From positions 66,216 through 104,255 of IMG/VR virus record IMGVR_UViG_3300018954_000017: a DNA stretch of 38,040 nucleotides. One strand, given 5' to 3'. The stretch comes from a virus. The notes under the pieces were generated by a model. It worked only from the letters and a program-made list of their open reading frames with translations, was not told where the DNA came from and did no database searches. The position numbers and the translations under genes were made by a program. Positions 2,300 through 31,521 of this stretch are shown piece by piece (position 1 is the stretch's first letter; the number at the start of each line of letters is the position of its first letter).

Positions 2300-5050
2300 T
2301 TGGCAAATGTGATTGAGGGACATCAATACGACCCATATTCGATAGAAGGCTCCGGCATCGTCGGCGGACTGCTGGGCGGCGGCGGCTGCTTTGTCGCTGG
2401 TACACTAGTCTGGACTCCGAGTGGACTCAAACCGATTGAAACCCTTCAGGTTGGCGACCTCATCGTTGCCTTTAAGCCTGATGGGTCACTTGTCACGTCT
2501 GTAGTTGAAGCAACTCATGTCCACGAGCAATACTGCGTCAATCACTACACTCTCTGGAATGCTGAGTTTACAGCCACCCCAAATCATCACGTACTGACCG
2601 CCAACAACGCCTACAAAGCACTCCAAGACTTCGAGATAACCGAATGCCTTGTTGATGCTTTAGGCGAGCTACAGCCGCTTCTGGCGGTTAAAGCTGAACC
2701 TGAGTTGACAACGGTTTACAACCTTACTGTTCAACCCTGGCACAACTACCTTGTGACACCAAAAGGCATCCGCTGTTCAAACGGTGGCGGCGGTAAGTCA
2801 GGTGGAGGGAAGGCAGAGAATGATGCCTACAAAAGTAATGCAACGGCATACATTGTAGAGCTATTGAGTGCTGGAGTTGTCGAAGGAATTGTTGGTGGGC
2901 TTCAGGGAATCTATTTTGACCGCACTCCTGTTCAGAATACGGATGGATCGCTTAACTTTAAAAACTTTCAATATGATTTTCGTCCTGGCACTCAGAATCA
3001 AACGTTTATGCCGGGATATTCTGATGAAATTTCATCAGAGAAAACGGTAGATCAAGAAGTCAAACAACAATTACCAATTTCCAGAACCGTTGTTAGCTCA
3101 GAGATTGATGGCATTCGTGTTCGATTGGCGCTATCGCAACAAAAGCAGGAGGACAATGGTGACGTTGTAGGAATGACTTTACAGTATAAGATTTTTGTCA
3201 AACAAGGAGGTGGTGCTTTTGAGTTACGGGTGAATGAAACTAAATCTGGTAGGTTTTCTTCACTTACTGAATTTGAATATTATCTTCCTGTCAACAATTT
3301 CAACAATACAGTTGATCAGTTCACTGTCAGAGTTGAAAAGGTAACCGCAGATATCGCTGAGGGAGACACTAAGCAGCAACAGACGCTCAAGTGGCAGTCG
3401 TATACAGAGGTAATCGAAACAAAACTTAACTATGCGAATTCGGCTGTTATCGGTGAGCAATTTAATCCAAAAGACTTTTCTTCAATACCTAACCGTCAAT
3501 ATAAGTTAGCTGGCGTCCTTATTCAGATTCCAACTAATGCAACGGTTAACCCAACAGATCGTGGATTAGACTTTATATCGGATATCTGGGACGGTACGTT
3601 CTACACGCCAGCATTAGCTTGTGCCGATCCAGCTTGGATTGCCTACTACCTAATGACTGATCCCATCAACGGATTGGGGCGTTACATTGATGCTCCCTCG
3701 ATTGACAAGTGGAGTCTCTATCGGTGCAGTCTTTATAACAACCAGATGGTTGGTAATGGACTGGGTGGCACAGAGCGCAGATTCCTTTGTCATACGGTGT
3801 TGCAACAGCGAGAGGATGCTTGGAAGGTGTTAGAAGCGGTCTTCAGCGCTTTCAATTGCAGCCATTATTGGGCAGATGGAACAGTCTATTTTGTTCAAGA
3901 CCGTCCGTTACTGCCGGGAGAAGAATATAGTTGGCAATTCACTCAAGCCGATGTTCAGGGTGGTCAATTCGTCTATAGCTATTCAGCACTACGAACGAGA
4001 TCTTCAGTTGCAATGGTTACCTGGAACGACCCTAGCGACTATTACAATCAAACGATTGAACCTGTAGAAGATGCTAATGCTTTAGCGAAATATGGCTATA
4101 AAGAGATAGAGTTTGCCGCATTCGGTTGCATTTCTCGTGGACAAGCCATCCGAAAGGGTCGCTATGTACTTTTTAGCAATAATCAAGAAACCCAAACGGT
4201 TAGCTTTAGTCCAAGATCTTTTGCAGCTTATGTCAGACCTGGTGAAATCATCCAAATAGCAGATGCCAAACGAGCCGCTATCAGGTACGGGGGGTTGGTT
4301 AAACAGGCAGACTTTAGCAGTATCCTCATAGACTCACCTGTTGCAATCCTCAGTGATGGATACCGTTTGACCTGTATGATGCCGGATGGAACGTTAAATA
4401 CTCGTAACATTGTCAATATTTTGGGCACACACACTACCCTCTTTGTTGATGTAGAGTTTAACGACATTCCTTTACCAGAATCTAACTGGGTTGTTTCTGC
4501 TCCAAATGTCCAACCGCAGCTCTTTCGTATCATCAGTAATGCAATTGATACTACTGATCCTACAAAACATGTGATAACAGCATCATTGTATATTGCAGAC
4601 AAATATGACTACATAGAAAATGGATGGGATATTCAGGAACAGCCCATACGTCAAACCATTCCAACAGTAGTATCGGCTCCATTGGGTATGAAGTTGACAT
4701 CTACTACAGTTAACGGCGCACCCACCCTATTTGTTATATGGCGAAGACCCTTGACCGAAATTGGAGAGATTGATCCGTTTGTAGACTCCTATCAAGTTGA
4801 ATTATCCCGCGACTTTATTACTTGGGAACAATCCAGAATTGTGACTAATAATAATACCACTTATCAGAACGTGACACCTGGAGTCTATTACGGACGAGTG
4901 CAATCAATAGATATCAGTGGTAGAACATCTGAATTTATTTACTCAACAGCATTCACGGTTCAAGTGAATCAAATACCACCAATGCCCATTACAACCGAAA
5001 CTCAAGACTTTACCAATCCAGGCAATAGTTCAAACGTGTTCTTTTTCTAA
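2300..5050 (+). CDS. phage tail tip / host-specificity protein J-like with N-terminal Hint domain and C-terminal FN3-like domain
   Basis: Lambda J-like motifs: LLSAGVVEG, FRPGTQNQT, WDGTF..DPAW, FGCISRGQAIRKGRY, RPGEIIQIAD..YGG. Confidence 0.9.
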   Translation: MANVIEGHQYDPYSIEGSGIVGGLLGGGGCFVAGTLVWTPSGLKPIETLQVGDLIVAFKPDGSLVTSVVEATHVHEQYCVNHYTLWNAEFTATPNHHVLTANNAYKALQDFEITECLVDALGELQPLLAVKAEPELTTVYNLTVQPWHNYLVTPKGIRCSNGGGGKSGGGKAENDAYKSNATAYIVELLSAGVVEGIVGGLQGIYFDRTPVQNTDGSLNFKNFQYDFRPGTQNQTFMPGYSDEISSEKTVDQEVKQQLPISRTVVSSEIDGIRVRLALSQQKQEDNGDVVGMTLQYKIFVKQGGGAFELRVNETKSGRFSSLTEFEYYLPVNNFNNTVDQFTVRVEKVTADIAEGDTKQQQTLKWQSYTEVIETKLNYANSAVIGEQFNPKDFSSIPNRQYKLAGVLIQIPTNATVNPTDRGLDFISDIWDGTFYTPALACADPAWIAYYLMTDPINGLGRYIDAPSIDKWSLYRCSLYNNQMVGNGLGGTERRFLCHTVLQQREDAWKVLEAVFSAFNCSHYWADGTVYFVQDRPLLPGEEYSWQFTQADVQGGQFVYSYSALRTRSSVAMVTWNDPSDYYNQTIEPVEDANALAKYGYKEIEFAAFGCISRGQAIRKGRYVLFSNNQETQTVSFSPRSFAAYVRPGEIIQIADAKRAAIRYGGLVKQADFSSILIDSPVAILSDGYRLTCMMPDGTLNTRNIVNILGTHTTLFVDVEFNDIPLPESNWVVSAPNVQPQLFRIISNAIDTTDPTKHVITASLYIADKYDYIENGWDIQEQPIRQTIPTVVSAPLGMKLTSTTVNGAPTLFVIWRRPLTEIGEIDPFVDSYQVELSRDFITWEQSRIVTNNNTTYQNVTPGVYYGRVQSIDISGRTSEFIYSTAFTVQVNQIPPMPITTETQDFTNPGNSSNVFFF
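2387..2782 (+). other. Hint (intein-like/BIL) domain within the J protein
   Basis: CFVAGTLV...ATPNHHV...VYNLTVQPWHNYLV...IRCSN, 132 aa. Followed by Gly, so there is no +1 C/S/T. Confidence 0.85.
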
Positions 5051-5061
5051 AAGGTAAAAAT

Positions 5062-5907
5062 ATGACTTACACAAATTATGTTGACGGCGACGGCATCAAA
5101 AGAAATCGCAAGGTTCGTAACACAGGAACAACCACAGATCCTTATGAGAGTTATGTAGTTGATGCAGATCTTGCTAATGCAATGGGTACATCAGCTTCAG
5201 CACCTGCAACGACTACTACTGGAACTTGGTCACTCATTAGTTTGATCAAAGGACTTTGGACAGCATTCGGATTAACCTCACAGGCTTCAGATACCACTGG
5301 CACACTAATGCAACGCATCAGAGGTATTGGCGATCGTATGGGGAGCTTTGGTGATCCGGCGAGCGCTACAGGTTCAATTATGGCTCAGTTGCGGACGATT
5401 GCGGAAAGCTATATTCTTCCTCGTGCTTCCAACGCTCAATACTATGCCAGTTTTGTTGGGGGTAATAAGTCTTACAATGGTACTCCGGGTGCTGTTGATG
5501 TCGCAGGAACAGGTGGTAACGTTTGTGTTTTTGTCAACCCTGTTGGCTCAGGAGTTGACTTATATATTCAACGTCTTGTTCTTTCCTCCGACAATGCAGG
5601 TCGTTACGAACGCTATCGACAGGCGACTTTAGGAACTCCAGGTACTCCAGTAGTTAATGTAAACAGAGGCGGCAATGGTTCCATAGGAGTTGGAAAAGTT
5701 TATCCTCCAGCACAAATTACTGCTACTGGAGGAAACATAAGCATGGTTACTTATGTGCCTGCTTCGGCTACAAGTGCTGACGCTGTAGATGGCACCCTGA
5801 TTCTACGTCCAGGACAAAACTTGTATTGGCGATATCTTCCCAACGGCAACGTGACTTCTAAATGTGCTGTTGAAGTTGTCTGGTGGGAATTGCCAGCGCA
5901 GGCTTAG
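5062..5907 (+). CDS. putative virion structural / tail-associated protein
   Basis: Directly follows J with an AAGG RBS. G/T/S/A-rich with a beta-rich C-terminal domain ending VVWWELP. Confidence 0.55.
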   Translation: MTYTNYVDGDGIKRNRKVRNTGTTTDPYESYVVDADLANAMGTSASAPATTTTGTWSLISLIKGLWTAFGLTSQASDTTGTLMQRIRGIGDRMGSFGDPASATGSIMAQLRTIAESYILPRASNAQYYASFVGGNKSYNGTPGAVDVAGTGGNVCVFVNPVGSGVDLYIQRLVLSSDNAGRYERYRQATLGTPGTPVVNVNRGGNGSIGVGKVYPPAQITATGGNISMVTYVPASATSADAVDGTLILRPGQNLYWRYLPNGNVTSKCAVEVVWWELPAQA

Positions 5908-8900
5908 GTGATCACATCATAAAGCATGAATTGTAGCTCGTCGTCCTCTTTCGGCTCAACCCTAAATCTCCCAACAAACGCCAACTTATTCTCAATTGCC
6001 TCTATAACTTGTGGCTTTGCTAATGCTTTGTAGTAAGCAACAGCTTCCACAGTCGTGCCACTGTGGTCTTCAAGCACCAATTCGTACCGAGGGTTCCCAG
6101 AAGATTTGGCAATCTTGTAAACTTTGTCGATGATGGCACAAGCTACATCGACAAAGTCTGGCGGTTCAACTCCATCTTCGTTGACAATTGGAAAGCTATC
6201 ACGCTGAGATAATTCTTCGACGGGGTTGGATGTTATAAAGAATCCTGTGAATTCCAATTCTTTCCGTAATCTCTCGTCCATTGTAAAATCATCTTCAATT
6301 TCAACCAGATAGAAGTTTTTGCGGTTGTATATCTCAGACAGCTCCTTTTCTTTCCGAACAATGAATTCAACATCTGCCGTCTTCGTTTTATTTAATGGCT
6401 CATTTTCGTAGACAAATGTTTCTAAAGCTTGGCGACTGCGCTCTAGTCCTAACTTGGTGTATCTCTTTTCAATGGATTCGGTTGTTCTCGCCGCTGCATC
6501 ATCCATTGCTTCATACTTCTTCTTCCAATCCTGCAACAATTTAATTGACTCAATCAACTGCTTGCGATTGTCACAGATGCAATCTAAAGCGCCAGAGTAG
6601 GCAAGAGCCGACAGAGCTTTTACGTTGATGCGGGTGCGAAGAAATATGTCAACTAATGATGTAAATTCACCTTCTTGACGAGCATTGAGGATAGCCTGGA
6701 TTGCTGTATCCCCTAAATCTTTGATCAGTCGCAAGCCAAAGAAGACTTTGTTTTCAGAGGATGGTGTAAAGTTCTCACCTGATATATTGATGTCTGGTGG
6801 CAATACCTCAACACCTGATTTTTTGGCAAGTTTGATAAACTGACGTGCCTTCTTGACATCAGTACAACTCAGGAATGCGGCAATATATTCGGCAGGATAA
6901 TTGGCTTTCAGGTAAGCACACTGGTAAGCAAGATACGAATATCCAACGGAGTGGCTATTTGAGCAACACAGACCAGATGCCAATAGAAAATTGTGTTCCG
7001 GATGGTCTACTTCAAGATCGTAACCTTGACGGAATCCCAAGAAAGAGATTCGTACAGGCTTCCGTAACACCTTACTCCTGTCCAGCCCAAATCCTGAATT
7101 ACCTTCAGTAATTGTACCAGAGTAAACCCAGCTTTTCCTATCTCCCCAGTATGGGAATTGAAGTTCTCCATCGATAAACGAATTAGTCGCCAAGAGCGTT
7201 TTATAATTTCCGCATCCAACATTCTGTCTCTCTGTTGTGTTCTTTCTAACAACTCTGTCCCGTGGATAGGCAAAAAGTGCCAAACTCCATCCACTTCGAT
7301 GATTGTCTTGCTGTCCCTGTGGATTAGGTCTATCTGTTTCTTCCTGCCAGAACAGTCTATCCGCGTATTCCGAATAAACCCCATATGTTCCAATCTTGCA
7401 ATCAACCACACTTCCATTCGAGAAGCATTCTTGGGTGACGACTGAGCTTTGATTGTAATTTCCTGAAATTTCTCTGGATTTTCTTCTCTCCATTTTTTCA
7501 AAGGGACAGCACGAGCCTGCTGAATTTCCGGACGCGCAGATGTTTTCTTCGCTGTTTCCGAATACTTTTGTCTCATTGCTGGTGTGTGGACTAAAGTTTT
7601 GCAATTGTTCACTCTCGTCTTTCTGTGTAACTCCTGACACTGGGGGCAAGACCGATAATGCAAAGATTTCTCTTTCTGTGTTGGAACTGTGACCCCACAC
7701 AATGTGGTTCTGGGTTTCGCTCCTGTTTTGCTGGTAGAGATGCAATGAATGCATTCTTTGTGGTGAGCAGTCAGTTTCTTTTTGGAGCTTACTGCTACCC
7801 CACACCGAGTAACCCATCTTGAGTATTTTCCAGAGCGGAAGTTGTCCATCTTTAGTTAGCCATTTGTGATCTAAAGTGCAACATTCGACACTGTTGTCGT
7901 CAAATGTAACTTGCCACAAGGGAACCATCCCATGATCATGTAGAGCTACAACAGTTGACTCGGACAAAGAGCCGTCCGGATTCATTGACAGGACACGATC
8001 TCCAGGTAGGCAGTCCTTGATAGGCTTGTTACCACCCATTATATAGATTTCTGTGTCTTCGTGTACTGTTTTGTTGAAACCGTACTCCCCGAAAGTTTGA
8101 ACTTTATCAAAAAATTGGTTTAACTTGACCTCATCAAACCCCCTCGACGTGCCCCCTTCAAGAAAATCTTTTCTCTCTTTAGGCATCTTATCGACTTTCT
8201 TTTTGCCCACAACAGAACGCAATTGATCCGCTCTAGTGTCGTCAAAGCCAGCTAGAACCTGCGAAGACTTCATTACCGACTCTTGATACACCAGCACACC
8301 ATACGTGTCCTCTAGAGCCTCCTGAAGCTCTGGGAAGTCATATTCAACGGGTTCCTTGCCGTGTTTACGTGCAATATATCTTGGAATCATTCCTGAGTCT
8401 AACGCGCCAGGTCGATAGAGTGCATTGACGACAGACAGATCTTCAACTGTGCTGGGCTGAAGTTGCTTCAGAATCCCTTGCATTCCTTTGCTGCCAAACT
8501 GGAAAATGTCCTCAGTTAGACCACGAGAAAAAATTGTATAAGTTGCTGAATCATCCATCGGCAAATCATCAACATCTACTGTTTCCCCTCTGTTTTGTTT
8601 GATATTAGCGACAGCTTCGTCAATAATTGCAAGATTGATTAATCCCAAAAAATCCATTTTGAGAAAGCCGAACTTAGGCACCATGTTCATATCATACTGA
8701 GTCACAACAGTGCCGTCATCCATCACCATCAATGGAATTAATTTCTCAATATCACTCCCAGCAATAACAACACCAGCTGCATGTACGCCAACGCTAGCTA
8801 AAGCTCCTGAAACTTGAATTGCTATGTCTATCCAGCGCTTGAATTCAGTATCCTTTAGATATCTTTCGCGAAACTCTGGTACTGGAGTGTCTTCAGCAAT

Positions 8901-11285
8901 CATCTTAGTCAGCTTAGTTGGGTTGCCTCGACTAACCGGGATCATTTTGGCTACCTGGTTAGCATCCGGAATCGAAATGCCTAGCACTTTAGCAACCTTC
9001 TTAATTGCAGCCCTAGATTGCAATGTGCCATAGGTACAAATTTGAGCAACCCTTTTACTCCCATACTTCTCTGTGACATACCGAATCATCTCAGCTCGAC
9101 CACCCGGATGAAAATCTGTATCAATATCGGGCATCTCGCGACGACCTTTATTCAAGAATCTTGCAAACGAAAGTCCATAATGAATCGGATCAACTCCAGT
9201 AATTCTAGTAGCATATGCCGCTAATGACCCAGCAGCAGAACCTCTGCCGACTCCAACACGAATGCCTTGCTCATTGGCGTGACGAATATAGTCTGCAACT
9301 ACGAGGAAGTAGCTAGCGAAACCCATTGAATTGATAACTTCAAGTTCCTCAGCCAGACGGTCTTTGTAATTCTGTGGTGGCTCTTCACCTTTGAAGCGAT
9401 CGCGTAAACCTTCTTCGCAAATGTGAGTGAACCAAGACTCGTAGGTATGTCCTGATGGAACCTCAAACTCTGGTGTTGTTGGGTCACGGAATAGTTCGTA
9501 CTCGCTGACCGATTCTGCCAATTTCACCGTATTGCCAAGAGCTGCATCTACAAGCTCATGTGGTAAGTAGTAAAATCTTTCTGCCAACTCACCTGATTTA
9601 CCGAACGTCAGATCTCGGTCATATCTAAATGAATCTGTCTCAAGTTGGCTGAGTGTTTTACCGTACTTGATACAATACAGGATTGAATGCACTTCGTAAT
9701 GGCAATCTTTCAGGTAATGAGAGTCTGCCGTAATGATAAACTGACAACCCAACTCCTGTCCCAGACGGACTAGAGCAAAATTTAACTTTTGGTAAATTTC
9801 AAGTCCGTCATGATCTTGTAACTCAATGTAGAAATTTTCCCCAAACGTCTCCTGATACCACTTTAGAATCTCTCTAGCTCTCTCTGGCTCATCATTGACT
9901 ATCAGTTGTGGCACTAGCGAGCCAATGCAGCCTGAAGTCACAATCAAGCCATCTTTGAACTCCTCTAGTTTTTCAAGGGTGATTAGTGGGTATGGTTTAC
10001 GTCCCCCACCCTGTTTCTTGTTGTGAATTTCACTCCAAGTGGTCAGCTTGGAAAGGTTGCTGTAACCTTGCAGACTCTTTGCCATTACTATCTGGTGGAA
10101 GCGCCCATTGTGCTTGTAATCACCTTGTAATTGATTATTAGCTTGCTTGGTCTGCAATAGACTGCTCAAGGGGTGTTCTAAGTATGTTTCGTTTCCAGCA
10201 ATGAACTTAACTCCAAACTTTTTGCAAGCCTCATAGAGGTCTGCTACCCCCATCATTGTCCCATGATCGGTGACTGCCACTGCTGGCTGACCAGCTTCTA
10301 AAGCAGCTTTAACAATCTCTTCTGGGGATGGCAGACCGTCGCTATAGTTTGAGTGTAGATGCAGATTGACGAATGAATCACTGAGTTTAACGTCCAGAAC
10401 CTCGGTTGTCTTGTTCGCTTCGCATAATACGGACTCCTTGTTATGTTGTTCTTTATCAATCTTAACAACTGTAGAATTAGTTGCGTCAGGCTTCATCAAC
10501 ACTTCATAAAACTCTTTGGGTAATCGAAGGTTTGCAGGAATTTTTCTATAGCGCAATAGTCCGGCTATTTGGTCAACCGAATAACCCGCTAGTCCACAGC
10601 CAATCTTGGTCATCAAAAACTCTTTATCTGGATGAGCCTTGATATATCCAAACAGTTCCGACAGTTGCTCATCAATGTAAGCCAATGAGACTGGCTGATT
10701 AATTGTTAGATCTTTGGTCACGATTGCGTAAGTTTGACCTTGCAGACCCCTAGCTTGACCGTAGATCGCTCTAAATGCCATAGCTGCTTTAGCCGCACCT
10801 TTACCATGACGACCTTCTGTGTTGGAACCGAAGATAAAGATTTGGTTTGGTTGGAGGGTGGTAATCTCGTCAGGAGTATACCGAGTCAATTGGTACTCTA
10901 CCTCTCTCTCTACTCGATATTCTTTTCCCTCAAACTTGAAGCCCTTAACCAGAAACTGCTCAATCATCCACTCATACGATCTTTCGTAATCCTCGTCACT
11001 AACAAGGAATACTACTGGACGATCGTAACGACACTCAGTAATGTCTCGCACAAGCTTCACGATGGCAGGTCTGCGCTCCAAGAAATGAGGCTTACAATCT
11101 TTCTTGAACTGCTCCCAGTCGCCAGTGCTGACATAAACTGCTGAAGCTTCCTGTGGCGGGTATAGCTGCGAATACTGTTGAACTCGAAGTCCACCGAATT
11201 CCGGGCGGACTGAGAAGAATTGACCTACGGTGCCCCAATTGTCTGTGTCGGAATATCGAACGATCTTTAACATTGGTGACTCCAT
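5904..11285 (-). CDS. dnaE: DNA polymerase III alpha subunit with ~300-aa N-terminal extension and an intein
   Basis: PHP motifs LHLHSNYSDG and AVTDHG; GRGSAAGSL; MPDIDTDF; HAAGVV; KMDFLGL; YGFNK/SHS interrupted by the intein. Confidence 0.97.
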   Translation of the reverse strand: MESPMLKIVRYSDTDNWGTVGQFFSVRPEFGGLRVQQYSQLYPPQEASAVYVSTGDWEQFKKDCKPHFLERRPAIVKLVRDITECRYDRPVVFLVSDEDYERSYEWMIEQFLVKGFKFEGKEYRVEREVEYQLTRYTPDEITTLQPNQIFIFGSNTEGRHGKGAAKAAMAFRAIYGQARGLQGQTYAIVTKDLTINQPVSLAYIDEQLSELFGYIKAHPDKEFLMTKIGCGLAGYSVDQIAGLLRYRKIPANLRLPKEFYEVLMKPDATNSTVVKIDKEQHNKESVLCEANKTTEVLDVKLSDSFVNLHLHSNYSDGLPSPEEIVKAALEAGQPAVAVTDHGTMMGVADLYEACKKFGVKFIAGNETYLEHPLSSLLQTKQANNQLQGDYKHNGRFHQIVMAKSLQGYSNLSKLTTWSEIHNKKQGGGRKPYPLITLEKLEEFKDGLIVTSGCIGSLVPQLIVNDEPERAREILKWYQETFGENFYIELQDHDGLEIYQKLNFALVRLGQELGCQFIITADSHYLKDCHYEVHSILYCIKYGKTLSQLETDSFRYDRDLTFGKSGELAERFYYLPHELVDAALGNTVKLAESVSEYELFRDPTTPEFEVPSGHTYESWFTHICEEGLRDRFKGEEPPQNYKDRLAEELEVINSMGFASYFLVVADYIRHANEQGIRVGVGRGSAAGSLAAYATRITGVDPIHYGLSFARFLNKGRREMPDIDTDFHPGGRAEMIRYVTEKYGSKRVAQICTYGTLQSRAAIKKVAKVLGISIPDANQVAKMIPVSRGNPTKLTKMIAEDTPVPEFRERYLKDTEFKRWIDIAIQVSGALASVGVHAAGVVIAGSDIEKLIPLMVMDDGTVVTQYDMNMVPKFGFLKMDFLGLINLAIIDEAVANIKQNRGETVDVDDLPMDDSATYTIFSRGLTEDIFQFGSKGMQGILKQLQPSTVEDLSVVNALYRPGALDSGMIPRYIARKHGKEPVEYDFPELQEALEDTYGVLVYQESVMKSSQVLAGFDDTRADQLRSVVGKKKVDKMPKERKDFLEGGTSRGFDEVKLNQFFDKVQTFGEYGFNKTVHEDTEIYIMGGNKPIKDCLPGDRVLSMNPDGSLSESTVVALHDHGMVPLWQVTFDDNSVECCTLDHKWLTKDGQLPLWKILKMGYSVWGSSKLQKETDCSPQRMHSLHLYQQNRSETQNHIVWGHSSNTEREIFALSVLPPVSGVTQKDESEQLQNFSPHTSNETKVFGNSEENICASGNSAGSCCPFEKMERRKSREISGNYNQSSVVTQECFSNGSVVDCKIGTYGVYSEYADRLFWQEETDRPNPQGQQDNHRSGWSLALFAYPRDRVVRKNTTERQNVGCGNYKTLLATNSFIDGELQFPYWGDRKSWVYSGTITEGNSGFGLDRSKVLRKPVRISFLGFRQGYDLEVDHPEHNFLLASGLCCSNSHSVGYSYLAYQCAYLKANYPAEYIAAFLSCTDVKKARQFIKLAKKSGVEVLPPDINISGENFTPSSENKVFFGLRLIKDLGDTAIQAILNARQEGEFTSLVDIFLRTRINVKALSALAYSGALDCICDNRKQLIESIKLLQDWKKKYEAMDDAAARTTESIEKRYTKLGLERSRQALETFVYENEPLNKTKTADVEFIVRKEKELSEIYNRKNFYLVEIEDDFTMDERLRKELEFTGFFITSNPVEELSQRDSFPIVNEDGVEPPDFVDVACAIIDKVYKIAKSSGNPRYELVLEDHSGTTVEAVAYYKALAKPQVIEAIENKLAFVGRFRVEPKEDDELQFMLYDVIT
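6957..8069 (-). mobile_element. intein in DnaE (371 aa, Thr1 ... Ser-Asn, +1 Ser)
   Basis: Inserted in FNK|SHS. TVHEDTEI (block A), CTLDHKW (block B), YDLEVDHPEHNFLL (block F), LCCSN (block G). Confidence 0.9.
7007..7849 (-). CDS. Vsr/DUF559-like (PD-(D/E)xK) homing endonuclease with Cys-rich N-terminus, in the +1 frame inside the dnaE intein
   Basis: QIDLIHRDSKTIIEVDGVWHF...QQRDRMLD...SWRLIRL is the DUF559/Vsr pattern. CxxC motifs (CIHC, CPQC) and a basic helical spacer. Start codon uncertain. Confidence 0.8.
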   Translation of the reverse strand: MDNFRSGKYSRWVTRCGVAVSSKKKLTAHHKECIHCISTSKTGAKPRTTLCGVTVPTQKEKSLHYRSCPQCQELHRKTRVNNCKTLVHTPAMRQKYSETAKKTSARPEIQQARAVPLKKWREENPEKFQEITIKAQSSPKNASRMEVWLIARLEHMGFIRNTRIDCSGRKKQIDLIHRDSKTIIEVDGVWHFLPIHGTELLERTQQRDRMLDAEIIKRSWRLIRLSMENFNSHTGEIGKAGFTLVQLLKVIQDLGWTGVRCYGSLYESLSWDSVKVTILK

Positions 11286-12119: not shown

Positions 12120-12785
12120 TCAACTGATTGCTTTGGCTTGCCAATAGGCTTCAGGTAGACCACGCATCATGTTTTCGTGACGAGCAGCGGCATCAACAAA
12201 CTTTGACATCCTGTTGAGTAGCGCGGACATATAAAGGATGTTTTGACCAAGTTCAACAATATCCTCTGGACGATCTACGAACCAGTCATAGATATTGCGA
12301 ATTACTCGATCATGATACATCCAGCCAACATATTCAGTCTCAAGTTTACGAATTAATTCATTGAGGTGATAGAGGCACCAGACCTCATAATTCTTTACAC
12401 TATGAACAAAATCTGGCGCATTCGGCAGTTCGCTTTTGTATGCGATTGTTTTTTCTGCCAATTCATCAATGTAGTCTTGTGAAGGAACATTTTTGGGTGA
12501 ATCGCCTAGATAATGAGCAAACCCGCTATAGCAAGCCATTGTCATCTCAATGATCTTTAGCTGCTCGTGTAATCCTTCGGTGACAAAGGTCAATTGTTCA
12601 ATGTCTAAGATTTTGTTGAGAAACATCCGGGCTTCTTCGGCACTGTGGTAGACCCGACAGATTGAACCATCTTTACGATCTTCAATCTTAGTCTTGATAC
12701 GATCTCCCTCGCGCACACTCATGTAGTTGGTGTAGCCGCGATCACCAGTACCAGGATGGTATTTTGTATGAAGTCTACTTGTCAT
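12120..12785 (-). CDS. divergent PduO-type ATP:cob(I)alamin adenosyltransferase-like protein
   Basis: N-terminal GTGDRGYT (PduO TGDxGxT) and C-terminal LNRMSKFVDAAAR (PduO LNRLSD..AR). Coupled to the B12-dependent nrdJ. Confidence 0.65.
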   Translation of the reverse strand: MTSRLHTKYHPGTGDRGYTNYMSVREGDRIKTKIEDRKDGSICRVYHSAEEARMFLNKILDIEQLTFVTEGLHEQLKIIEMTMACYSGFAHYLGDSPKNVPSQDYIDELAEKTIAYKSELPNAPDFVHSVKNYEVWCLYHLNELIRKLETEYVGWMYHDRVIRNIYDWFVDRPEDIVELGQNILYMSALLNRMSKFVDAAARHENMMRGLPEAYWQAKAIS

Positions 12786-15700
12786 TACTTAGCCTCCGGC
12801 ATCATGCATTTATCTGAATCGCATCCGACAACACCCTGATCTTTGTTCCACCCCCGATCGTACTTCTCAAGTAGTCCCTGAAAATCTTCCGATTGACGAC
12901 GGCTCAACACTTGCCGCTGTAGTTTATCGTAGCGTTCTTTAGAGATTGGCTCGAATGGTAAGCGAGGGTAGGTTTCGTTAGCATCAAATCGAGCGAGTAG
13001 GGCACAGCTGATGTAGCCTTCGTCATCCGCAATTGCATTGTAAATAAGATTGCCAACAGTTTCAATTTCGTGCTCTCGTAACTCAATTGTGGCACTCACG
13101 TTATGACCTGCATAATACTTCTGAACTTGCATGTAAAAGGAAAATTGAGCCTCTGCACTGAACTTACTAATGTCAATCTGATCCGCCCCCGGTAAATTAG
13201 CCCAAGATACCTCAACCGGAATCTCCACCAGCCACTCGGTTACCCGTGGGTCAAACGGGTCATCTAACAATCGCCCTTCGTCATCCTTGCAAGATTGCGA
13301 AGGTAGCACAGAATAGCCGTAGTCCATACAAGCGAGCGCTACAGGGTCATGAGAAGTGAATGTTATGCGACGGATGTACCGTTGCGCCTTGGGCGGGTGC
13401 CAGCCTGCCGAAGCGCCTGTAAGAAGACTTTTGGTATTGTGAGATTTAATCGCTCCTTGCCAATACCAGGAATCATCATCGTCAACTCCTTCAACAGCAA
13501 CATCATAGCTATAATCTGGGACACTTTCAAATTCAATTTTTTCAACTTGATATGGGTTGAATTTGAATTGACGTTTGGGATACGGAATAGGATATTTAGC
13601 CGCTTTTACACTCATCTGATTTAATTTTTCAATGGATTCCCATTCAGAGGTCATACGGCTTAAATTCAAAACCCACATAGAGCAAGTTAATTGAAAGTTT
13701 TCGCCTTTAGTCTCGTGATTAATTGAAAAACTTAACCCTACTGACTCGCCAATTTGCTGAAGATTACGCAGGAAGTTTTCACTAGCGCTTGTTATTCTAA
13801 CGCAGCCTCTTTCTTCTATTGCACCATCAGAATCAATCATACCACTAAAAAAAGCCAATATACTATTTCGAGAAGATTGCCTCAAAGCTTTTGGGATACG
13901 ATCAAGATAAGCACTTTTAACGGACTTACCTAATGAATGATATTCCATCCAAGCAAATAGCGGCTGACTAGCAAAGCAGAGTTCAGATCGACCACCACGA
14001 CTGTCTGGGTGCAATGTGCCTTTCAATCCGAATAAAGACTCTCCAATCTGACTTAATTTTTGGAGAATATTTTCGTTTCCGCTACAAAAACGAACTCGAT
14101 GTTTTCCGAGACTCATTGAACCGTCACCATAAAGCATTCCTAAAAAATAAGCAAGTTCAGGGCTTACGTTTTTAGGAGTGTTTATTTTATTTGCTGAACG
14201 ACCAAATTTGGATTGTTTTTCCGTGTTAAATGGTTTATCGGAAAAAGAGAATTCGGTTTCATTTCGGTATGTACCTAATTTAAAATCTAACTGCATTCCT
14301 GGAATCATTTCCGAGGCAAACACCCAGTCTCCCTGCACAGATAGCCTGTGATTAGGGGTCATTCTTAGGACTCGTCCGTTTGCTAAGGTTATCTTGACAA
14401 GTTTTAAAGGTTGGTTGGCTATACCTTGATTAACTTGAATTCCGCCACGAACACTAAGTTCTAAACATTTAAATTCTCCGCTTCCAGGATTCATTAATTC
14501 ATCAGCGTACAAAAGACCCTGATCAAAAATGCGAAGTGCGTTTTTATCCAGACATCCCGCAGGCTGAACAGTTGTGTAACGATTGGGGCGTTTGAGATTG
14601 TGCTTGTTGCAATAGTCGAAGAGTTTGACCCGGACGTATTCTTTCCAGTAGCTAAGATAACGACGTTCAAGATCGCAATATAAAAGACCTTCGTTAAAAT
14701 CGTTTTCCTCCGAATAAACCTCATCATCTTCATTTATACCCAGTAGCTTGGCAATCTTATCAATGCGACCGTAATCATCAGCGGGTATATACCACTTTTC
14801 AGGTCTTCCTTCAGCCCACCAACGCAACCAATCGCTACCAAATGCTTGCACAAAAAAGTCAAACAATCCAGTGAAAGACACACCCACAATTGGGTCAAGT
14901 TCGCGACTGATACGATAGCGCTCATCAGGAAACACATGATGCAGTAGAGCGGCTACAGACAGTGCTCCAGCTTCAAAGGCTAGCTTTTGTTGGGCGAGGT
15001 CGAGGGGATTGATTTGGTTGAGGTGGATTTCTGAAAGGTCACAGAGAAAATCTTTTCCGAGAATTTCTCCACAATTGTGAGCCACAAAACCTTCAACCAC
15101 TCCCCAGTGTTCTAGTGGCTCCGTGAAGTCGTAGACTTTTGCTGTACCTGCTGGATTCACCGATCGAACTTTTGGTGCATTGTTTGTTAAGTGACATGCT
15201 AATTTTTCTGTTTTGTACTGAATAGAAAATCCAATTTCATTGAAGAAAGTGCAACGATGCTCGTATTTTTGGATGTTGACATCATAGCTTTCTCGACACT
15301 GATATACACCATTTGCAAACTCAATCATTTTGGGTTTGTTTGTTGTATAGTAAGCGTCAATTCCAAAATCTTCACACAAACTGCCCAGTAACTGTTCGAC
15401 AAGAACAAAGGAAGTTGTTTTGAAGCTGATTCTGCCACCAGCAATGACAGATCCATTTGCTGAGTACAAACCGTTTAGGAATGCAGCTTTTTCACTCTTA
15501 TTCCAGTCAGAATAAGTTCCGGGTAATTTTCTTTCTGGTAATTGTACAAAATGAAAATCTAGGCTGTGCAACTGTTCATTAAAACCGTACAGATAAATAT
15601 GTCGATCTCCTTGCCAATTAAACTCGTAATTGTTGGCTTCAATTAAACTCAAAATATCTGTGTCATCTTTGCCAATGTTTACGACTACACCTAAACACCC

Positions 15701-26446: not shown

Positions 26447-26504
26447 AAATCTCTCCTATATATGACAAGTGGCGCACTCCATCCGAAGATAAAGTACGCC
26501 ACAA

Positions 26505-26632
26505 AGCCGAGAGCAGGACTCGAACCTGCATATCCCGCGTGGAAGGCGATAACCTCAAATCATTCGGCTCCGAGAGGAGCAAGTTGTAGACTCAAGATGT
26601 TTTAGGTGTCCTAACCATTAGACGATCTCGGC
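26505..26632 (-). tRNA. tRNA-Gly(TCC)-like gene with a 56-nt Y-RNA-like insert (26549-26604) in the anticodon stem
   Basis: GCCGAGA TC GTCT-AATGGTTA-GGAC A CC[insert]CGC CTTCCAC GCGGG ATAT GCAGG-TTCGAGT-CCTGC TCTCGGC T. A full cloverleaf once the insert is removed. Confidence 0.85.
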
Positions 26633-26635
26633 ATT

Positions 26636-26764
26636 TGGGACTGAGGACGGGACTCGAACCCGCAACCAGGGCATTATAAGTGCGATAATCTCATCAATTC
26701 AGCTCTTACAAGCAAGATATTAGACAAGAATTTTTACCTGCTCTGCCAATTGAGCTACCTCAGT
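26636..26764 (-). tRNA. tRNA-Ile(TAT)-like gene with encoded CCA and a 53-nt Y-RNA-like insert (26684-26736) in the anticodon stem
   Basis: ACTGAGG TA GCTC-AATTGGCA-GAGC A GG[insert]GCA CTTATAA TGCCC TGGTT GCGGG-TTCGAGT-CCCGT CCTCAGT C CCA. Confidence 0.85.
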
Positions 26765-26772
26765 CAAGTTTG

Positions 26773-26895
26773 GGCTGATGATAGGATTTGAACCTATAAC
26801 CCAAAACTACCTGATAACCTCCATCTGTCGGCTCTATTGAGCAAGGGGTTTGACGAAGATAATGTTTTTGTTCTACCAGATTGAACTACACCAGC
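26773..26895 (-). ncRNA. tRNA-like RNA whose anticodon loop is replaced by the Y-RNA-like insert
   Basis: GCTGGTG TA GTTC-AATCTGGTA-GAAC A AAAAC[insert]GTTTT GGGTT ATAGG-TTCAAAT-CCTAT CATCAGC C. No canonical anticodon loop. Confidence 0.8.
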
Positions 26896-26903
26896 CATGT
26901 GAG

Positions 26904-26970
26904 TAGGGCAAGAGAATGAAAGAAGATGTGGTTCCATAATTAAGTAGATAACCTCCTTTCCGCAGCCCTA
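26904..26970 (-). ncRNA. small free-standing Y-RNA-like hairpin
   Basis: TAGGGC TGCG GAAAGGAGGT TATCT...CAC ATCTTCTTTC ATTCTCTT GCCCTA. The ends pair, and it shares the GAGGTTATC, ATCTT and CTTGC motifs with the three tRNA inserts. Begins at the predicted transcription start. Confidence 0.7.
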
Positions 26971-26975
26971 TCCTG

Positions 26976-27004
26976 ATACTACTGCAATCTTACACATCTG
27001 TCAA
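26976..27004 (-). promoter_or_regulatory. strong sigma70-type promoter for the Y-RNA/tRNA/Ro60 operon
   Basis: TTGACA-gatgtgtaagattgcag (17 nt)-TAGTAT, with +1 predicted at about 26969-26970. Confidence 0.85.
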
Positions 27005-27011
27005 GCATTAG

Positions 27012-27203
27012 TTAGCATTTGGCTAACTTTTGCAGCAACGGATAGCCAAGAGCAAACACTTGCTCCATGAACTCCTGTTTGTTTAAGCCGAGCGTCAGTC
27101 GCATTTCTTCTATCTCATCCTTTTGATCTTCCGGAAGCCTGAAAGGGTATTGTGGGCGTTTCGCACGATAGTTCTTGTAGATTTCTGGGTTTCGTTTAGT
27201 CAT
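27012..27203 (-). CDS. small RHH-like DNA-binding protein
   Basis: QYPFRLPEDQKDEIEEM...LNKQEFM gives a beta-helix-helix pattern. Confidence 0.5.
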   Translation of the reverse strand: MTKRNPEIYKNYRAKRPQYPFRLPEDQKDEIEEMRLTLGLNKQEFMEQVFALGYPLLQKLAKC

Positions 27204-27206
27204 TAC

Positions 27207-28202: not shown

Positions 28203-28348
28203 AATCCTCTCTCCTTTTTAAGTGCTTCTTGGATGATCCCAGCATACGTTAGCGACCAAGTGATTGCAATGGTATTCTCTTGCTCGTCTACAAGCTTGTA
28301 GTGTTCGCTTCGACGATCAAAATTTACCACAAAAATATCAACTTTCAT
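28199..28348 (-). CDS. 49-aa hypothetical protein coupling the helicase to the RNA ligase
   Basis: MKVDIFVVNFDRRSEHYKLV...ERGL*, with ATGA overlaps at both ends. Confidence 0.55.
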   Translation of the reverse strand: MKVDIFVVNFDRRSEHYKLVDEQENTIAITWSLTYAGIIQEALKKERGL

Positions 28349-31300
28349 GTCTCCCCCTCGTATCCCTCAAAGTACTCCAATTTCAGTCCAGCACACGGTA
28401 GCTGCATTAGCTTCTCTAGCTCAACAGGATCACGTTCTAACGGTACGAAATACATGGCAGCTTTTGACCGCGTTAGGGCTACGAATGTTGCATATATTTC
28501 CTGTTGGAACTGCCAATTTAACATTCCCATTCTGTAGTATGGTAACAGATTGATACCCACCACGTAAACTCTCTGAGATTCATCACCTTTTGCCGAGTGA
28601 ATGCTGCTGTAGATTACGTGTCTCGTCCGGTCTTCCTCTTCCACCGGGAATACCTCCTCAATCTTCTCTACAAACTCCTTCACTGACTCGGCAGATTGCC
28701 CTAGGAACTCGTAACAGTACTCTAGACACCGATAGCGGTCTTCAGTTGCATCAGCTTGCGTGAGCTGTCCAGCAAGCTTGTAGCGTTCAACGAGGTACTC
28801 CTTCTGTTCGAGCAGTTTAGAGTGAAAGTCACCCCACTTACAATTCTTACCAATCTGCTTTGCAAACCCGCCCATCTCTTTCGCAATGTCTCGTGCCCGG
28901 ACAACTCCCTCAACTCCATTGAAAAATTTGGCTTCGAGAAAAAGTTTGATGAGTGGTGCGACGAACCTGCACAACACTAAATCTCCCGGTTGTACAGATG
29001 ACTTGACTGTATCAGGATGCATTAGCTCACAGGTGCCGTCTATGGCATCCTGTCGGGCTTTCATTTGAGGACTGATAAGTGAGGCAAGAGCGACATGACT
29101 TTTGGGACAGCGCTGGGATTCTGAGAGTGGGAGAACTTTGGCGTTGAAGAGTTTAATGATGGTCTCCATTGCTGTAGGTAACGCTGCCATGTACCCTGAG
29201 ATAGATTGTTTTTCGTCGCCCACAAAAATACAACGGTATCCGACAAGTTCATACTTTTTGTAGAGCGATATAAAGGCACGGTTAGCATCCTGACAATTAT
29301 GGGACAAGATGCCGTTGCCGAAAAAGTTGTGGTTATCTTCTACGTCGATGCAGTAGACCCACTCTTCTTCAGTTTGATTTTTTGTTGAGTCAATATTCCT
29401 CCACATTTGCTGCTGCAAGTTTGTGGATAAACTCCAGCTTCTTTCTTGCAATTGTTGTGATATCGGTAGAGAGTACCGCAGATTGGGCAAGGACGCTTTT
29501 GTAAATGTTCTCGTTGCTGTTGGATTCTTAGTATACGACCACATTCCCTGCTGCACGTCTTGTACCAAACTTCCCCAGTTTTGATATCGAGACGACTCTG
29601 ATAGTCTTTGTTGCAGACCGGACATGAATATGTTTTTAGGGGATTTGTCGCTGAAGCTTTTCTCGCCGCCTTCTGGCAACTGCTGCTGCAATAGTAACGG
29701 GAGTAAGCTTGGGTTTTCGTACAGAGATACGTTTCGTGTTCCGTTCCACAGTGGTTGCAGGGTTTGGTGGTTTGAATTACAGACTGTTTGATCTTTAGTG
29801 TTTCCGGAGTGCACCCCGAATTTAGTTTGTAAGAAAGAGATGGATGGATATATGGTCTGATTAGTTGAAAAAACGCATCTCGTCCATGCGCTGAAAATGT
29901 CAGTATTCCTCCTTTGCTCGTTGGTGTTGCTTGAGAATTGCAACCCAAAGAAGTTAGGTATTCTGCTGCCAATGCAATTTCTTTCATCGAAAAAGCATAA
30001 GTTGAAATCTTTGCTTGACCGCTGAAACTCCCGTCGTCCATAAACCATACTGCCAAAGCCAACGGATTTAGTTGACTCAGAACCGCTTCTGTGATTTGTT
30101 TTTTCTGACCCGTTGGTTTGAACAGGTGATATATCTCTGTGAATAGTGGGTGAGAAATTGTCGCAAAACTCCGAACCACTCCACCAAACTCGGTTGGCAT
30201 TAATGGTGACAGACCTTTGTTCCCAACCCAACGATTCAGACTGTCGTGCTTCCACTGAAGATAATCTTGTTGTGCTACTCCATGTCTGAAGGATATCCGG
30301 GCATTCCCCATTTTGCCTTTCCACCTGCTGATTCCGAACGAAGCATCGCCAAGAAGCGACCCAATGATAATCGAACGCTCGGTCGTCGTTAGTTTGTCTG
30401 AAGGATTGTAGTTTTTGACCATCGATTTGAAGCAGTGAATGTTGTGGTTTTAATTGTCCTGCGTAGATGTATCCCTGCTCTTTCGTGTACACCGGATGAT
30501 TATCGGTAGCCTGTAGTCCACAAACGTTAACAATAGCTCGATTGTGTCGTTGAACTTTATACCATCCAGTAATTTTCTTAACTTCAATTTGTTGGCTAGA
30601 TGTATTGAAGCTCAAAATGTCTAATGATAGTTTATCTCGAACTATTTCGTCAATACGTTTGGTGCGACCGTCTGCAAGACTAACCAATGTGTCGCCCGTG
30701 ACGCACTCGTCAATCAGCAGATAACTCTTTTCCGCTTTTGGTGCCTGTGGATACAATTTTAATTTATGTGGCAACCAGACCATATCCGCATAATCGATTA
30801 CGTGGTCATATGCGCCCATTCGATAGCAGTCTTCCAGCAAGTCCATTGCAATTTTGACTCCCCACGCAGTTCCAGGTTTACCAAAAGGGAACCTGATCGC
30901 AAAGTAATTGACTACCCAATCCATTGAGTCAACATTGTCATCGGCTAAGTTCAATCGCGCAAAGTCAAGCAAACTCTTTAGCGACTCTTGCCATCTTTCG
31001 AGCAATAGCTCTGCCCTTTCGCTGTCTTCAGGCAACCTTGGTGGTGCAATTGGGTATCGGCGGCTTTTGTCAGCTATGACTTCTTTGAGACGATTTAGCC
31101 CCCATTGAGCTAACTTGTCAGCCTTGTGTTTGTCTACCTCCGGCATTTCTCCTTTGAACTTTCGGATAAGCAGAGCTTCGCCGCAACCGTGAGCTGTTGA
31201 AACATTTACACGTTTTGGTATTCTGGGATCTTGTTCAAATGCCAACTTGACAGATTTGTTGAACATCATTACGTTGATTTTTACGTTTGGAGGCAAAAGT

Positions 31301-31521
31301 CCAACTATTCCTTTTAGAAGAGTACTTTTGCCAGAACCTGCGGTAGAAGATACCACTAAATTTTCATCACTTTCCTGCAATTCTTCAAATACTTTTATTT
31401 GGTATTCATTCCAAGGAATTGCTGAGATTACCTCTTTACTCCAACGTCTCGGTGTCCACTCATCCTGCTTAACTATACTCGCAACAGTTTTTTCACGTTT
31501 AGCTTTAGCTGCCATGAACAA
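28345..31521 (-). CDS. UvrD/Rep-like SF1 helicase with intein
   Basis: TAGSGKST, LIDE|CQD (Walker B), VGDEKQSI, SQRCPK, SIHSAKGDE, VALTRSK. Confidence 0.92.
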   Translation of the reverse strand: MFMAAKAKREKTVASIVKQDEWTPRRWSKEVISAIPWNEYQIKVFEELQESDENLVVSSTAGSGKSTLLKGIVGLLPPNVKINVMMFNKSVKLAFEQDPRIPKRVNVSTAHGCGEALLIRKFKGEMPEVDKHKADKLAQWGLNRLKEVIADKSRRYPIAPPRLPEDSERAELLLERWQESLKSLLDFARLNLADDNVDSMDWVVNYFAIRFPFGKPGTAWGVKIAMDLLEDCYRMGAYDHVIDYADMVWLPHKLKLYPQAPKAEKSYLLIDECVTGDTLVSLADGRTKRIDEIVRDKLSLDILSFNTSSQQIEVKKITGWYKVQRHNRAIVNVCGLQATDNHPVYTKEQGYIYAGQLKPQHSLLQIDGQKLQSFRQTNDDRAFDYHWVASWRCFVRNQQVERQNGECPDILQTWSSTTRLSSVEARQSESLGWEQRSVTINANRVWWSGSEFCDNFSPTIHRDISPVQTNGSEKTNHRSGSESTKSVGFGSMVYGRREFQRSSKDFNLCFFDERNCIGSRIPNFFGLQFSSNTNEQRRNTDIFSAWTRCVFSTNQTIYPSISFLQTKFGVHSGNTKDQTVCNSNHQTLQPLWNGTRNVSLYENPSLLPLLLQQQLPEGGEKSFSDKSPKNIFMSGLQQRLSESSRYQNWGSLVQDVQQGMWSYTKNPTATRTFTKASLPNLRYSLPISQQLQERSWSLSTNLQQQMWRNIDSTKNQTEEEWVYCIDVEDNHNFFGNGILSHNCQDANRAFISLYKKYELVGYRCIFVGDEKQSISGYMAALPTAMETIIKLFNAKVLPLSESQRCPKSHVALASLISPQMKARQDAIDGTCELMHPDTVKSSVQPGDLVLCRFVAPLIKLFLEAKFFNGVEGVVRARDIAKEMGGFAKQIGKNCKWGDFHSKLLEQKEYLVERYKLAGQLTQADATEDRYRCLEYCYEFLGQSAESVKEFVEKIEEVFPVEEEDRTRHVIYSSIHSAKGDESQRVYVVGINLLPYYRMGMLNWQFQQEIYATFVALTRSKAAMYFVPLERDPVELEKLMQLPCAGLKLEYFEGYEGET
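29296..30705 (-). mobile_element. intein in the helicase Walker B motif (470 aa)
   Basis: CVTGDTLV...ATDNHPV...VYCIDVEDNHNFF..ILSHN|C. Confidence 0.92.
29340..30422 (-). CDS. LAGLIDADG_2 (I-SceI-like) homing endonuclease with C-terminal Zn-finger repeats, in the +1 frame inside the helicase intein
   Basis: IIIGSLLGDASF ... LNPLALAVWFMDDGS ... RPYIHPSLSYKL. Repeats CNHC/YCSSSC, CPVC/TCSREC and CPIC/TCSSKC. Confidence 0.88.
   Translation of the reverse strand: MVKNYNPSDKLTTTERSIIIGSLLGDASFGISRWKGKMGNARISFRHGVAQQDYLQWKHDSLNRWVGNKGLSPLMPTEFGGVVRSFATISHPLFTEIYHLFKPTGQKKQITEAVLSQLNPLALAVWFMDDGSFSGQAKISTYAFSMKEIALAAEYLTSLGCNSQATPTSKGGILTFSAHGRDAFFQLIRPYIHPSLSYKLNSGCTPETLKIKQSVIQTTKPCNHCGTEHETYLCTKTQAYSRYYCSSSCQKAARKASATNPLKTYSCPVCNKDYQSRLDIKTGEVWYKTCSRECGRILRIQQQREHLQKRPCPICGTLYRYHNNCKKEAGVYPQTCSSKCGGILTQQKIKLKKSGSTAST

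What the first reader, a model, noticed from the sequence alone, without database searches (positions are those of the whole stretch)
6957..8069. dnaE intein with its homing endonuclease overprinted in the +1 frame
The intein frame is open throughout, but its ~240-aa middle has no recognisable domain. The +1 frame (7007-7849) encodes a coherent Cys-rich Vsr/DUF559-like endonuclease. Standard inteins carry the nuclease in-frame, and 'fractured genes' have free-standing Vsr-like nucleases between split intein halves. This case is neither: a contiguous intein dual-coded with a separately translated nuclease, possibly an intermediate toward gene fracture. The intein frame is -1 relative to the nuclease, where NNT+AA/AG/GA stops are normally common, so their absence implies selection on both frames.
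Basis: partly seen in the sequence, partly recalled or inferred. Interest (0 to 1): 0.85.

Follow-up and report, generated by a model that had tools for sequence, protein, structure and literature searches.

The report
DnaE intein with out-of-frame homing nuclease
A phage DNA polymerase gene carries a self-splicing protein insert (intein) whose middle DNA also encodes, one base out of register, a separate DNA-cutting enzyme that probably spreads the insert; the layout is real and shared by about 40 relatives in phages and bacteria, but inteins with an out-of-frame nuclease have been described before.

Summary
Confirmed. A 371-aa intein (8069..6957, minus strand) interrupts phage dnaE at FNK|SHS. 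Its frame has no stop, its ends fold as a HINT domain (Z 19), and its middle is predicted disordered. The +1 frame (7849..7007) encodes a Vsr/EDxHD-type nuclease (Z 11.7 to Vsr, 9.4 to I-Bth0305I). Chance of no stops: about 1e-11. About 40 homologous alleles, in phages and in gammaproteobacterial chromosomes, keep the same layout, so it is no assembly error. The nuclease frame is under purifying selection (dN/dS 0.05-0.17); the intein-frame loop is only kept free of stops. Empty close relatives and a divergence jump at the intein edge indicate homing. About 42 fractured alleles (split intein plus free-standing homologous nuclease) occupy the same site, but none lies inside the contiguous clade, and decayed contiguous alleles shrink towards mini-inteins. 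'Intermediate toward fracture' is therefore unsupported. The intein starts with Thr (33 of 38 alleles), reported in 2009 as not seen in nature. Out-of-frame intein nucleases are already published (Gosselin 2025; dnaX 2026), and this scan noted both the layout and Thr1 inteins on other DNA. New variant of a known kind; splicing, expression and cleavage untested.

The parts
5904..11285 (-). Phage dnaE (DNA polymerase III alpha) precursor, 1793 aa, one open frame
   Evidence: Pfam PHP, DNA_pol3_alpha, finger, HHH_6
6957..8069 (-). Contiguous 371-aa intein inserted at FNK|SHS; Thr1 ... Ser-Asn371, Ser+1
   Evidence: HINT fold Z 19.3 to Npu DnaB intein, rmsd 2.0 over 137 aa; empty alleles read FNKSHS
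8067..8069 (-). Thr1 codon (ACA), aligned with Ser1/Cys1 of allelic inteins
   Evidence: Thr in 33 of 38 complete contiguous alleles, all four Thr codons used
7785..8069 (-). N-terminal splicing region (blocks A and B; T-L-D-H-K-W carries block B Thr and His)
   Evidence: pLDDT about 80-95; alignment
7080..7780 (-). Intein-frame loop of about 235 aa, polar (Ser/Glu/Gly/Asn-rich), predicted disordered; a by-product of the nuclease codons
   Evidence: pLDDT under 50 for model residues 102-316; 22-35% identity between alleles; omega above 1; composition
6957..7071 (-). C-terminal splicing region (block F Asp, PEHN His, block G S-N|S); its first 65 nt overlap the last codons of the nuclease
7007..7849 (-). 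280-aa Vsr/EDxHD-type endonuclease ORF in the +1 frame: Cys/His-rich N-terminal part (probably zinc-binding), long helices, C-terminal nuclease domain (aa 142-278)
7226..7330 (-). Putative active-site residues D174, E185, D187, H191, D208
   Evidence: invariant or nearly so in 41 contiguous and 43 split alleles; D174-H191 spacing equals D196-H213 of I-Bth0305I (PMC3239194)
7895..7920 (-). Position of the family's usual nuclease start (Trp-Glu codons TGG GAG as Shine-Dalgarno, F-D-D codons giving ATG at +169/+172); degenerate here (Trp-Gln, GAC GAC, followed by +1-frame stops at 7873 and 7858), so this phage must use ATG 7849, which has no clear SD
29296..30705 (-). Second dual-coded intein of the same genome: 470-aa Cys1 intein in a UvrD-like helicase (28345..31521)
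29340..30422 (-). LAGLIDADG_2 endonuclease with Cys-rich tail, +1 frame inside the helicase intein
   Evidence: Pfam E 6e-30; P0 about 1e-15; same layout in Nostoc sp. JL33 and another contig

Best explanation
A stable, mobile two-product selfish element. The dnaE mRNA is read through in frame 0 to give a precursor; the intein's two ends fold into a HINT domain around a disordered loop of about 235 aa and splice by the class 1 route (Thr1 oxyester, transfer to Ser+1, Asn cyclisation), releasing intact DnaE. A second, internal initiation in the +1 frame makes a free Vsr/EDxHD endonuclease that cuts intein-less dnaE near FNK|SHS, and repair copies the whole element in (homing). Selection keeps the nuclease's amino acids and forbids T at nuclease codon position 3 before AA/AG/GA, so the host frame stays open. 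It most likely arose once, when a free-standing nuclease gene invaded an intein at this site; fractured alleles at the same site are its sister lineage, not its destination. SHOWN: both frames, folds, selection pattern, distribution, conserved start signals in relatives. INFERRED: splicing, translation, cleavage, origin.
For: Both folds predicted with clear matches. Stop depletion P about 1e-11. Nuclease-frame dN/dS 0.05-0.17 in the 10 of 12 contiguous pairs where dS was not saturated; window vs L001 differences 14/10/49 by nuclease codon position. All 41 contiguous alleles use the same +1 offset and form one clade in the nuclease tree (95/99) and intein tree (SH-aLRT 96). Mobility: window vs gammaproteobacteria, splicing domain 62-72% and nuclease 50-54% identical but extein flanks 34-47%; window vs L001, 75/830 nt differ inside the intein against 109/420 in the C-extein; 3 of 107 genomes of L013's family carry it, 26 of 30 inspected dnaE sites are empty, including the 91-92% identical nearest exteins. 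Separate translation: GAG (giving GGGAG) at the Trp-Glu codon in 21 of 23 alleles with ATG 7-10 nt downstream, background 38% (alleles are related, so the P of 1e-7 overstates it); another subclade hides GGAG in a 7-bp hairpin before its ATG, like the start hairpins of fractured-gene nucleases (PMC2677866). One dnaE and an unbroken frame in all alleles argue for working splicing.
Against: No expression, splicing or cleavage data. The window's own nuclease start lacks a clear SD. The protein has no significant HMM hit of its own. Thr1 together with Ser in place of the penultimate His is unusual and may splice slowly. I did not show that this dnaE is essential to the phage.
Confidence: 0.8

Rival explanations
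1. The contiguous dual-coded state is a way-station to gene fracture: a stop after the N-half and a new start before the C-half turn it into a Dassa-type fractured gene.
For: Fractured alleles with a homologous nuclease sit at the same FN[K/A/R]|SH site. One stop plus one start is an easier path than losing 10-30 stops. The root between the two groups is unresolved (AU p 0.42), so a contiguous common ancestor is possible.
Against: No fractured allele inside the contiguous clade. The clade is old (nuclease identity down to 33-37%) with no stop in any member. Decay seen: in-frame deletion of the nuclease (L104 217 aa, L209 201 aa, L210 188 aa) or stops in the nuclease frame (L023, L032). Only 1 of 30 fully scored split alleles keeps the contiguous frame relation on both sides; 32 of 35 have the N-half in the other frame.
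Confidence: 0.15
2. The contiguous form arose by re-fusion of a fractured gene, the overlaps of both intein halves with the nuclease gene growing until they met.
For: With distant outgroups the nuclease tree draws split alleles as paraphyletic around the contiguous clade. Split alleles often overlap the nuclease gene by about 100 nt and some halves are extended. Start hairpins resemble those of free-standing nucleases.
Against: The paraphyly rests on a long-branch pair and is not significant (AU p 0.42); the intein tree shows sister clades (96 and 94). Split alleles carry 4-20 stops per 100 codons in that frame, and no selection for losing them one by one is evident.
Confidence: 0.15
3. The nuclease is made not by internal initiation but by a +1 ribosomal frameshift out of the intein frame, as a fusion to DnaE-N and intein-N.
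For: The window's ATG 7849 has no clear SD.
Against: Relatives keep SD plus ATG by synonymous codon choice; a frameshift would yield a dead truncated polymerase; I saw no conserved slippery site (not tested systematically).
Confidence: 0.07
4. Assembly artefact: the nuclease is really in frame and two compensating indels were introduced.
Against: An independent metagenome contig (L001) and about 40 other assemblies have the same frames; errors would not remove 20 expected stops.
Confidence: 0.01

Closest known systems
Non-canonical actinobacteriophage inteins (Gosselin, Arsenault, Gogarten; bioRxiv 10.1101/2025.01.02.630785)
   Same: Contiguous intein, unstructured in-frame middle, homing endonuclease in another frame; includes Vsr-like/EDxHD nucleases; origin proposed as invasion by a free-standing nuclease; evidence of continued spread.
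   Different: Their Vsr-like nucleases are antisense, and their same-strand type is EndoVII-like in frame 3; hosts named are DNA polymerase, minor capsid, terminase and thymidylate synthase. Here: same-strand +1 Vsr-like nuclease, dnaE at FNK|SHS, phages and bacterial chromosomes, Thr1, with allelic fractured sisters.
Cyanobacterial dnaX intein with '+2 ORF' LAGLIDADG (bioRxiv 10.64898/2026.09.14.751524; Gorbalenya 1998 as cited there)
   Same: Same-strand overlapping nuclease ORF, disordered intein loop, omega below 1 in the nuclease frame and above 1 in the host frame, SD motifs upstream, sporadic distribution, replisome host.
   Different: Nuclease family (LAGLIDADG vs Vsr/EDxHD), host subunit and site; no fractured sister family reported there in the passages I read.
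Fractured genes with Vsr-like nucleases (Dassa et al. 2009, PMC2677866)
   Same: Vsr-like nuclease between intein N and C parts on the same strand, dnaE among the hosts, nuclease 3' end overlapping the C-part, start hairpins. About 42 such alleles found here at the same site with a homologous nuclease.
   Different: There the host gene is broken in two and splices in trans; here it is one frame. Whether one of Dassa's three DnaE sites is this site was not checked.
I-Bth0305I / EDxHD homing endonucleases (PMC3239194; PDB 3R3P) and E. coli Vsr (1CW0)
   Same: C-terminal Vsr fold, Asp...Glu-x-Asp-x3-His...Asp arrangement, separate N-terminal DNA-binding part.
   Different: Encoded inside an intein in a second frame instead of a group I intron; N-terminal part is Cys/His-rich with long helices instead of NUMOD repeats; about 15% identity.
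ShiLan element (PMC11855218)
   Same: Nuclease hidden out of frame in a stop-free insertion of a phage gene.
   Different: HNH nuclease, no splicing domain.

Membership tests
Class 1 intein | In-frame insertion at a conserved host site whose removal restores the host sequence | tested here: met
   FNK + SHS restored; empty alleles read FNKSHS
Class 1 intein | HINT fold | tested here: met
   Z 19.3, rmsd 2.0, 137 aa to Npu DnaB intein
Class 1 intein | Cys, Ser or Thr at position 1; block B Thr/His; block F Asp; terminal Asn; +1 nucleophile | tested here: met
   Thr1, TLDH, YDLE, Asn371, Ser+1. Thr1 is allowed by the class definition (PMC5222942) but was reported as not seen in nature in PMC2807308; penultimate residue is Ser, not His
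Class 1 intein | Measured protein splicing | not testable with these tools
   No assay possible
Class 3 intein | Trp-Cys-Thr triplet (B12, F4, G5) | tested here: not met
   Trp at B12 but Asp at F4 and Cys at G5 (definition in PMC2807308)
Canonical bifunctional intein | Endonuclease domain in the intein's own frame | tested here: not met
   In-frame middle is disordered, has no family hit, 22-35% conserved
Fractured gene (Dassa 2009) | Host gene broken into two ORFs, split intein | tested here: not met
   One open frame of 1793 aa; met by the sister alleles such as L007
Non-canonical intein with out-of-frame homing endonuclease | Contiguous intein frame with a nuclease ORF in another frame or strand | tested here: met
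Non-canonical intein with out-of-frame homing endonuclease | Purifying selection in the nuclease frame and signs of horizontal spread | tested here: met
EDxHD (Vsr-like) homing endonuclease | Vsr fold with conserved acidic residues and general-base His | tested here: met
   Z 11.7 to 1CW0, 9.4 to 3R3P; D174, E185, D187, H191, D208 conserved
EDxHD (Vsr-like) homing endonuclease | Significant family HMM match | tested here: inconclusive
   None for this protein; DUF559 weakly in 24 of 38 homologues
EDxHD (Vsr-like) homing endonuclease | Cleaves the element-less allele next to the insertion site | not testable with these tools
   Only indirect: distribution and divergence step

The most novel reading that the evidence does not exclude
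This dnaE site holds one nuclease-intein family in three states (contiguous dual-coded, fractured, mini), and the dual-coded state arose by re-fusion of a fractured gene, the reverse of the published path, then spread between phages and bacterial chromosomes as a naturally Thr1-splicing intein whose splicing-domain codons double as the nuclease's ribosome-binding site and start.
Probability: 0.15. Interest if true: 0.78.

Novelty: new variant of a known kind. Interest (0 to 1): 0.52.

Why it matters
It gives, at one insertion site, about 40 contiguous and about 42 fractured alleles sharing intein and nuclease, plus shrunken and empty alleles: a natural data set for testing how nucleases enter inteins and how split inteins arise, which earlier papers could only sketch. 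It shows that an essential bacterial replicase can carry about 240 codons of overprinted 'filler' kept only by stop avoidance. Gene callers mis-annotate these loci: they call the nuclease and truncate or miss the host gene, so such elements are under-counted. The family also offers natural Thr1/Ser+1 inteins for testing oxyester splicing.

Tried and rejected
Pfam, NCBIfam and PDB sequence searches of the nuclease gave no significant hit; Foldseek gave only E above 1e-3, with Vsr second. A single-sequence scan of viral contigs found nothing; the alignment did. No cultured phage in GenBank/INPHARED carries the nuclease. The first intein tree with the window's other inteins as outgroups could not be rooted. 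The AU test could not decide whether split alleles form one clade. The family count of 0 of 3151 at-risk sites in contiguous against 797 of 2636 in split alleles is partly circular, because 'contiguous' was defined by an open frame; the independent point is that the nuclease-sequence clade coincides with it. Class 3 was rejected (no block F Cys). A shifted junction was rejected (Thr aligns with Ser1/Cys1 of allelic inteins; spliced product is canonical). No convincing start hairpin at the window's ATG (z -2.1, structure lies upstream). Paper searches for 'overlapping gene' or 'alternative reading frame' with these terms returned nothing; most subscription papers are not searched, so later reports of natural Thr1 inteins may have been missed.

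Full report
Observation. The window is the last 38 kb of a 104-kb IMG/VR virus record. Its ribonucleotide reductase is closest to Synechococcus and Cylindrospermopsis phages (49-52%), so a cyanophage is likely (inference). dnaE is one minus-strand frame of 1793 aa (5904..11285). Residues 1073-1443 (8069..6957) are an insertion between YGFNK and SHSVGY. Its frame has no stop; the +1 frame holds a 280-aa ORF (7849..7007); the +2 frame has 26 stops.

The two products. An AlphaFold model of the insertion has confident ends and a middle below pLDDT 50; the ends match intein structures at Z 17-19. Residues are Thr1, block B T-L-D-H, block F Asp, terminal Ser-Asn and Ser+1; the class 3 triplet is absent. 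The +1 protein has no significant HMM hit of its own, but its model (pLDDT 86) matches Vsr (Z 11.7) and the EDxHD homing endonuclease I-Bth0305I (Z 9.4) over residues 142-278. D174, E185, D187, H191 and D208 are nearly invariant in 84 homologues, and the D174-H191 spacing equals that of the catalytic D196-H213 of I-Bth0305I (PMC3239194).

Chance. Keeping the nuclease protein and redrawing synonymous codons gives about 20 stops in the intein frame; the exact probability of none is about 1e-11. T at the third codon position is absent before AA/AG/GA (0 of 79) and common elsewhere (63 of 200). Ordinary genes of the window show 16-26 such stops.

Relatives. Searches of proteins, genomes, metagenomes and viral contigs gave two sets at the same FN[K/A/R]|SH site. 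Forty-one distinct alleles (three cut by contig ends) are contiguous with the nuclease in the same +1 frame; they come from phages and from chromosomes of Thiotrichaceae, Methylococcaceae, Chromatiaceae, Competibacteraceae and a Desulfococcaceae genome. About 42 phage-like alleles are fractured: split intein halves around a free-standing homologous nuclease (28-40% identity). Independent assemblies, among them L001 with a 91% identical nuclease, exclude an assembly error, although reads could not be checked.

Selection. Nuclease-frame dN/dS is 0.05-0.17 where measurable; the same DNA read in the intein frame gives 1.2-3.6, like the untranslated frame of split alleles (1.6-2.3). Against gammaproteobacterial alleles the nuclease is 50-54% identical and the intein-frame loop 24-33%. 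So the host frame is kept open, but its loop sequence appears free.

Mobility. The window's splicing domain is 62-72% identical to bacterial alleles whose exteins are only 34-47% identical, and it nests among them in the intein tree (100/100). Against L001, 9% of intein bases differ but 26% of C-extein bases, 52% at third positions; nuclease dS is 0.36 while extein dS is saturated. In L013's family 3 of 107 genomes carry the element, 26 of 30 inspected sites are empty and two hold an unrelated Cys1 intein. This is the pattern expected of homing; cleavage itself is inferred.

How the nuclease is made. In most alleles the intein's Trp-Glu codons read TGG GAG and its F-D-D codons supply an ATG 7-10 nt later; GAG is used in 21 of 23 such alleles against a 38% background (the alleles are related, so this is suggestive, not a formal P). 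Another subclade has GGAG inside a 7-bp hairpin before its ATG, as Dassa et al. described for fractured-gene nucleases. The window's allele has lost the upstream start and must use ATG 7849, without a clear SD. Internal initiation is the best reading; a frameshift is not excluded.

Is it an intermediate toward fracture? In the nuclease tree the contiguous alleles form one clade (95/99) with no split allele inside. In the intein tree with same-site outgroups the contiguous (96) and split (94) groups are sisters. Decayed members of the contiguous clade have lost most of the nuclease by in-frame deletion (188-217 aa inteins) or carry stops in the nuclease frame, and remain contiguous. Split alleles mostly have a different frame relation. 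The root is unresolved (AU p 0.42). A common origin is well supported; a direction is not.

Thr1. Thirty-three of 38 complete contiguous alleles begin with Thr, using all four codons; five begin with Ser; split alleles have Cys, Ser or occasionally Thr. PMC2807308 states that Thr1 had not been observed in natural inteins but works in an S1T mutant. I found no later paper reporting one, but this scan's own notes list several Thr1 families (unchecked).

Prior art and verdict. Contiguous inteins with antisense LAGLIDADG, antisense Vsr-like and frame-3 EndoVII-like nucleases are described in bioRxiv 10.1101/2025.01.02.630785; the dnaX intein's overlapping LAGLIDADG, with the same selection pattern, in bioRxiv 10.64898/2026.09.14.751524; fractured genes in PMC2677866. 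Earlier notes of this scan report the layout in polymerase, helicase and terminase inteins. What I did not find published is the same-strand +1 Vsr/EDxHD form in dnaE, its spread into bacterial chromosomes, its fractured sister family at the same site, and Thr1. The same genome holds a second, unrelated dual-coded intein (helicase, LAGLIDADG_2, +1 frame), so the design is recurrent. Verdict: real; new variant of a known kind; interest 0.52.

Noticed in passing
window 29296-30705 (-), ORF 29340-30422: A second dual-coded intein: UvrD-like helicase with a 470-aa Cys1 intein and a LAGLIDADG_2 nuclease (E 6e-30) in the +1 frame, P0 about 1e-15; same layout in Nostoc sp. JL33 (L168) and L169, while a homologue in L171 has stops in both other frames.
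   Followed up: partly
window 12785-17257 (-): Class II ribonucleotide reductase with two ordinary inteins carrying in-frame LAGLIDADG domains; the phage thus holds both designs.
   Followed up: no
window 2300-5050 (+), aa about 31-161: Tail-tip protein J with an N-terminal Hint/mini-intein-like domain (CF...CSN|G) between Gly-rich stretches.
   Followed up: no
window about 10500-11285 (-): DnaE has a 300-aa N-terminal extension containing an A1S_2505-family domain (NF049995, E 1e-33) ahead of the PHP domain.
   Followed up: no
window 24857-28202 (-): Rsr/Ro60-like TROVE protein next to a DRB0094-type RNA ligase, suggesting an RNA-repair module; no Y RNA search made.
   Followed up: no
window 34274-34945 (-) inside 33963-34979 (-): A 217-223-codon same-strand nested open frame in an exonuclease-like gene; no Pfam hit; may be chance.
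   Followed up: no
L191, L201 (dnaE of genomes in L013's family): An unrelated Cys1 intein of about 450 aa occupies the same FNK|SHS site; L218 has a 136-aa Cys1 mini-intein there, and L221-L225, L231, L241, L253 are split inteins there without this nuclease.
   Followed up: partly
L229, L230, L232-L234, L235 and copies: Distantly related inteins in other phage genes with long ORFs (324-373 codons) in another frame just downstream of block B, some with a contiguous intein frame; possible further dual-coded or fractured elements.
   Followed up: no
L002, L004, L005, L168, L169 gene calls: Automatic gene calling reports the nuclease and misses or truncates the host gene at these loci.
   Followed up: yes
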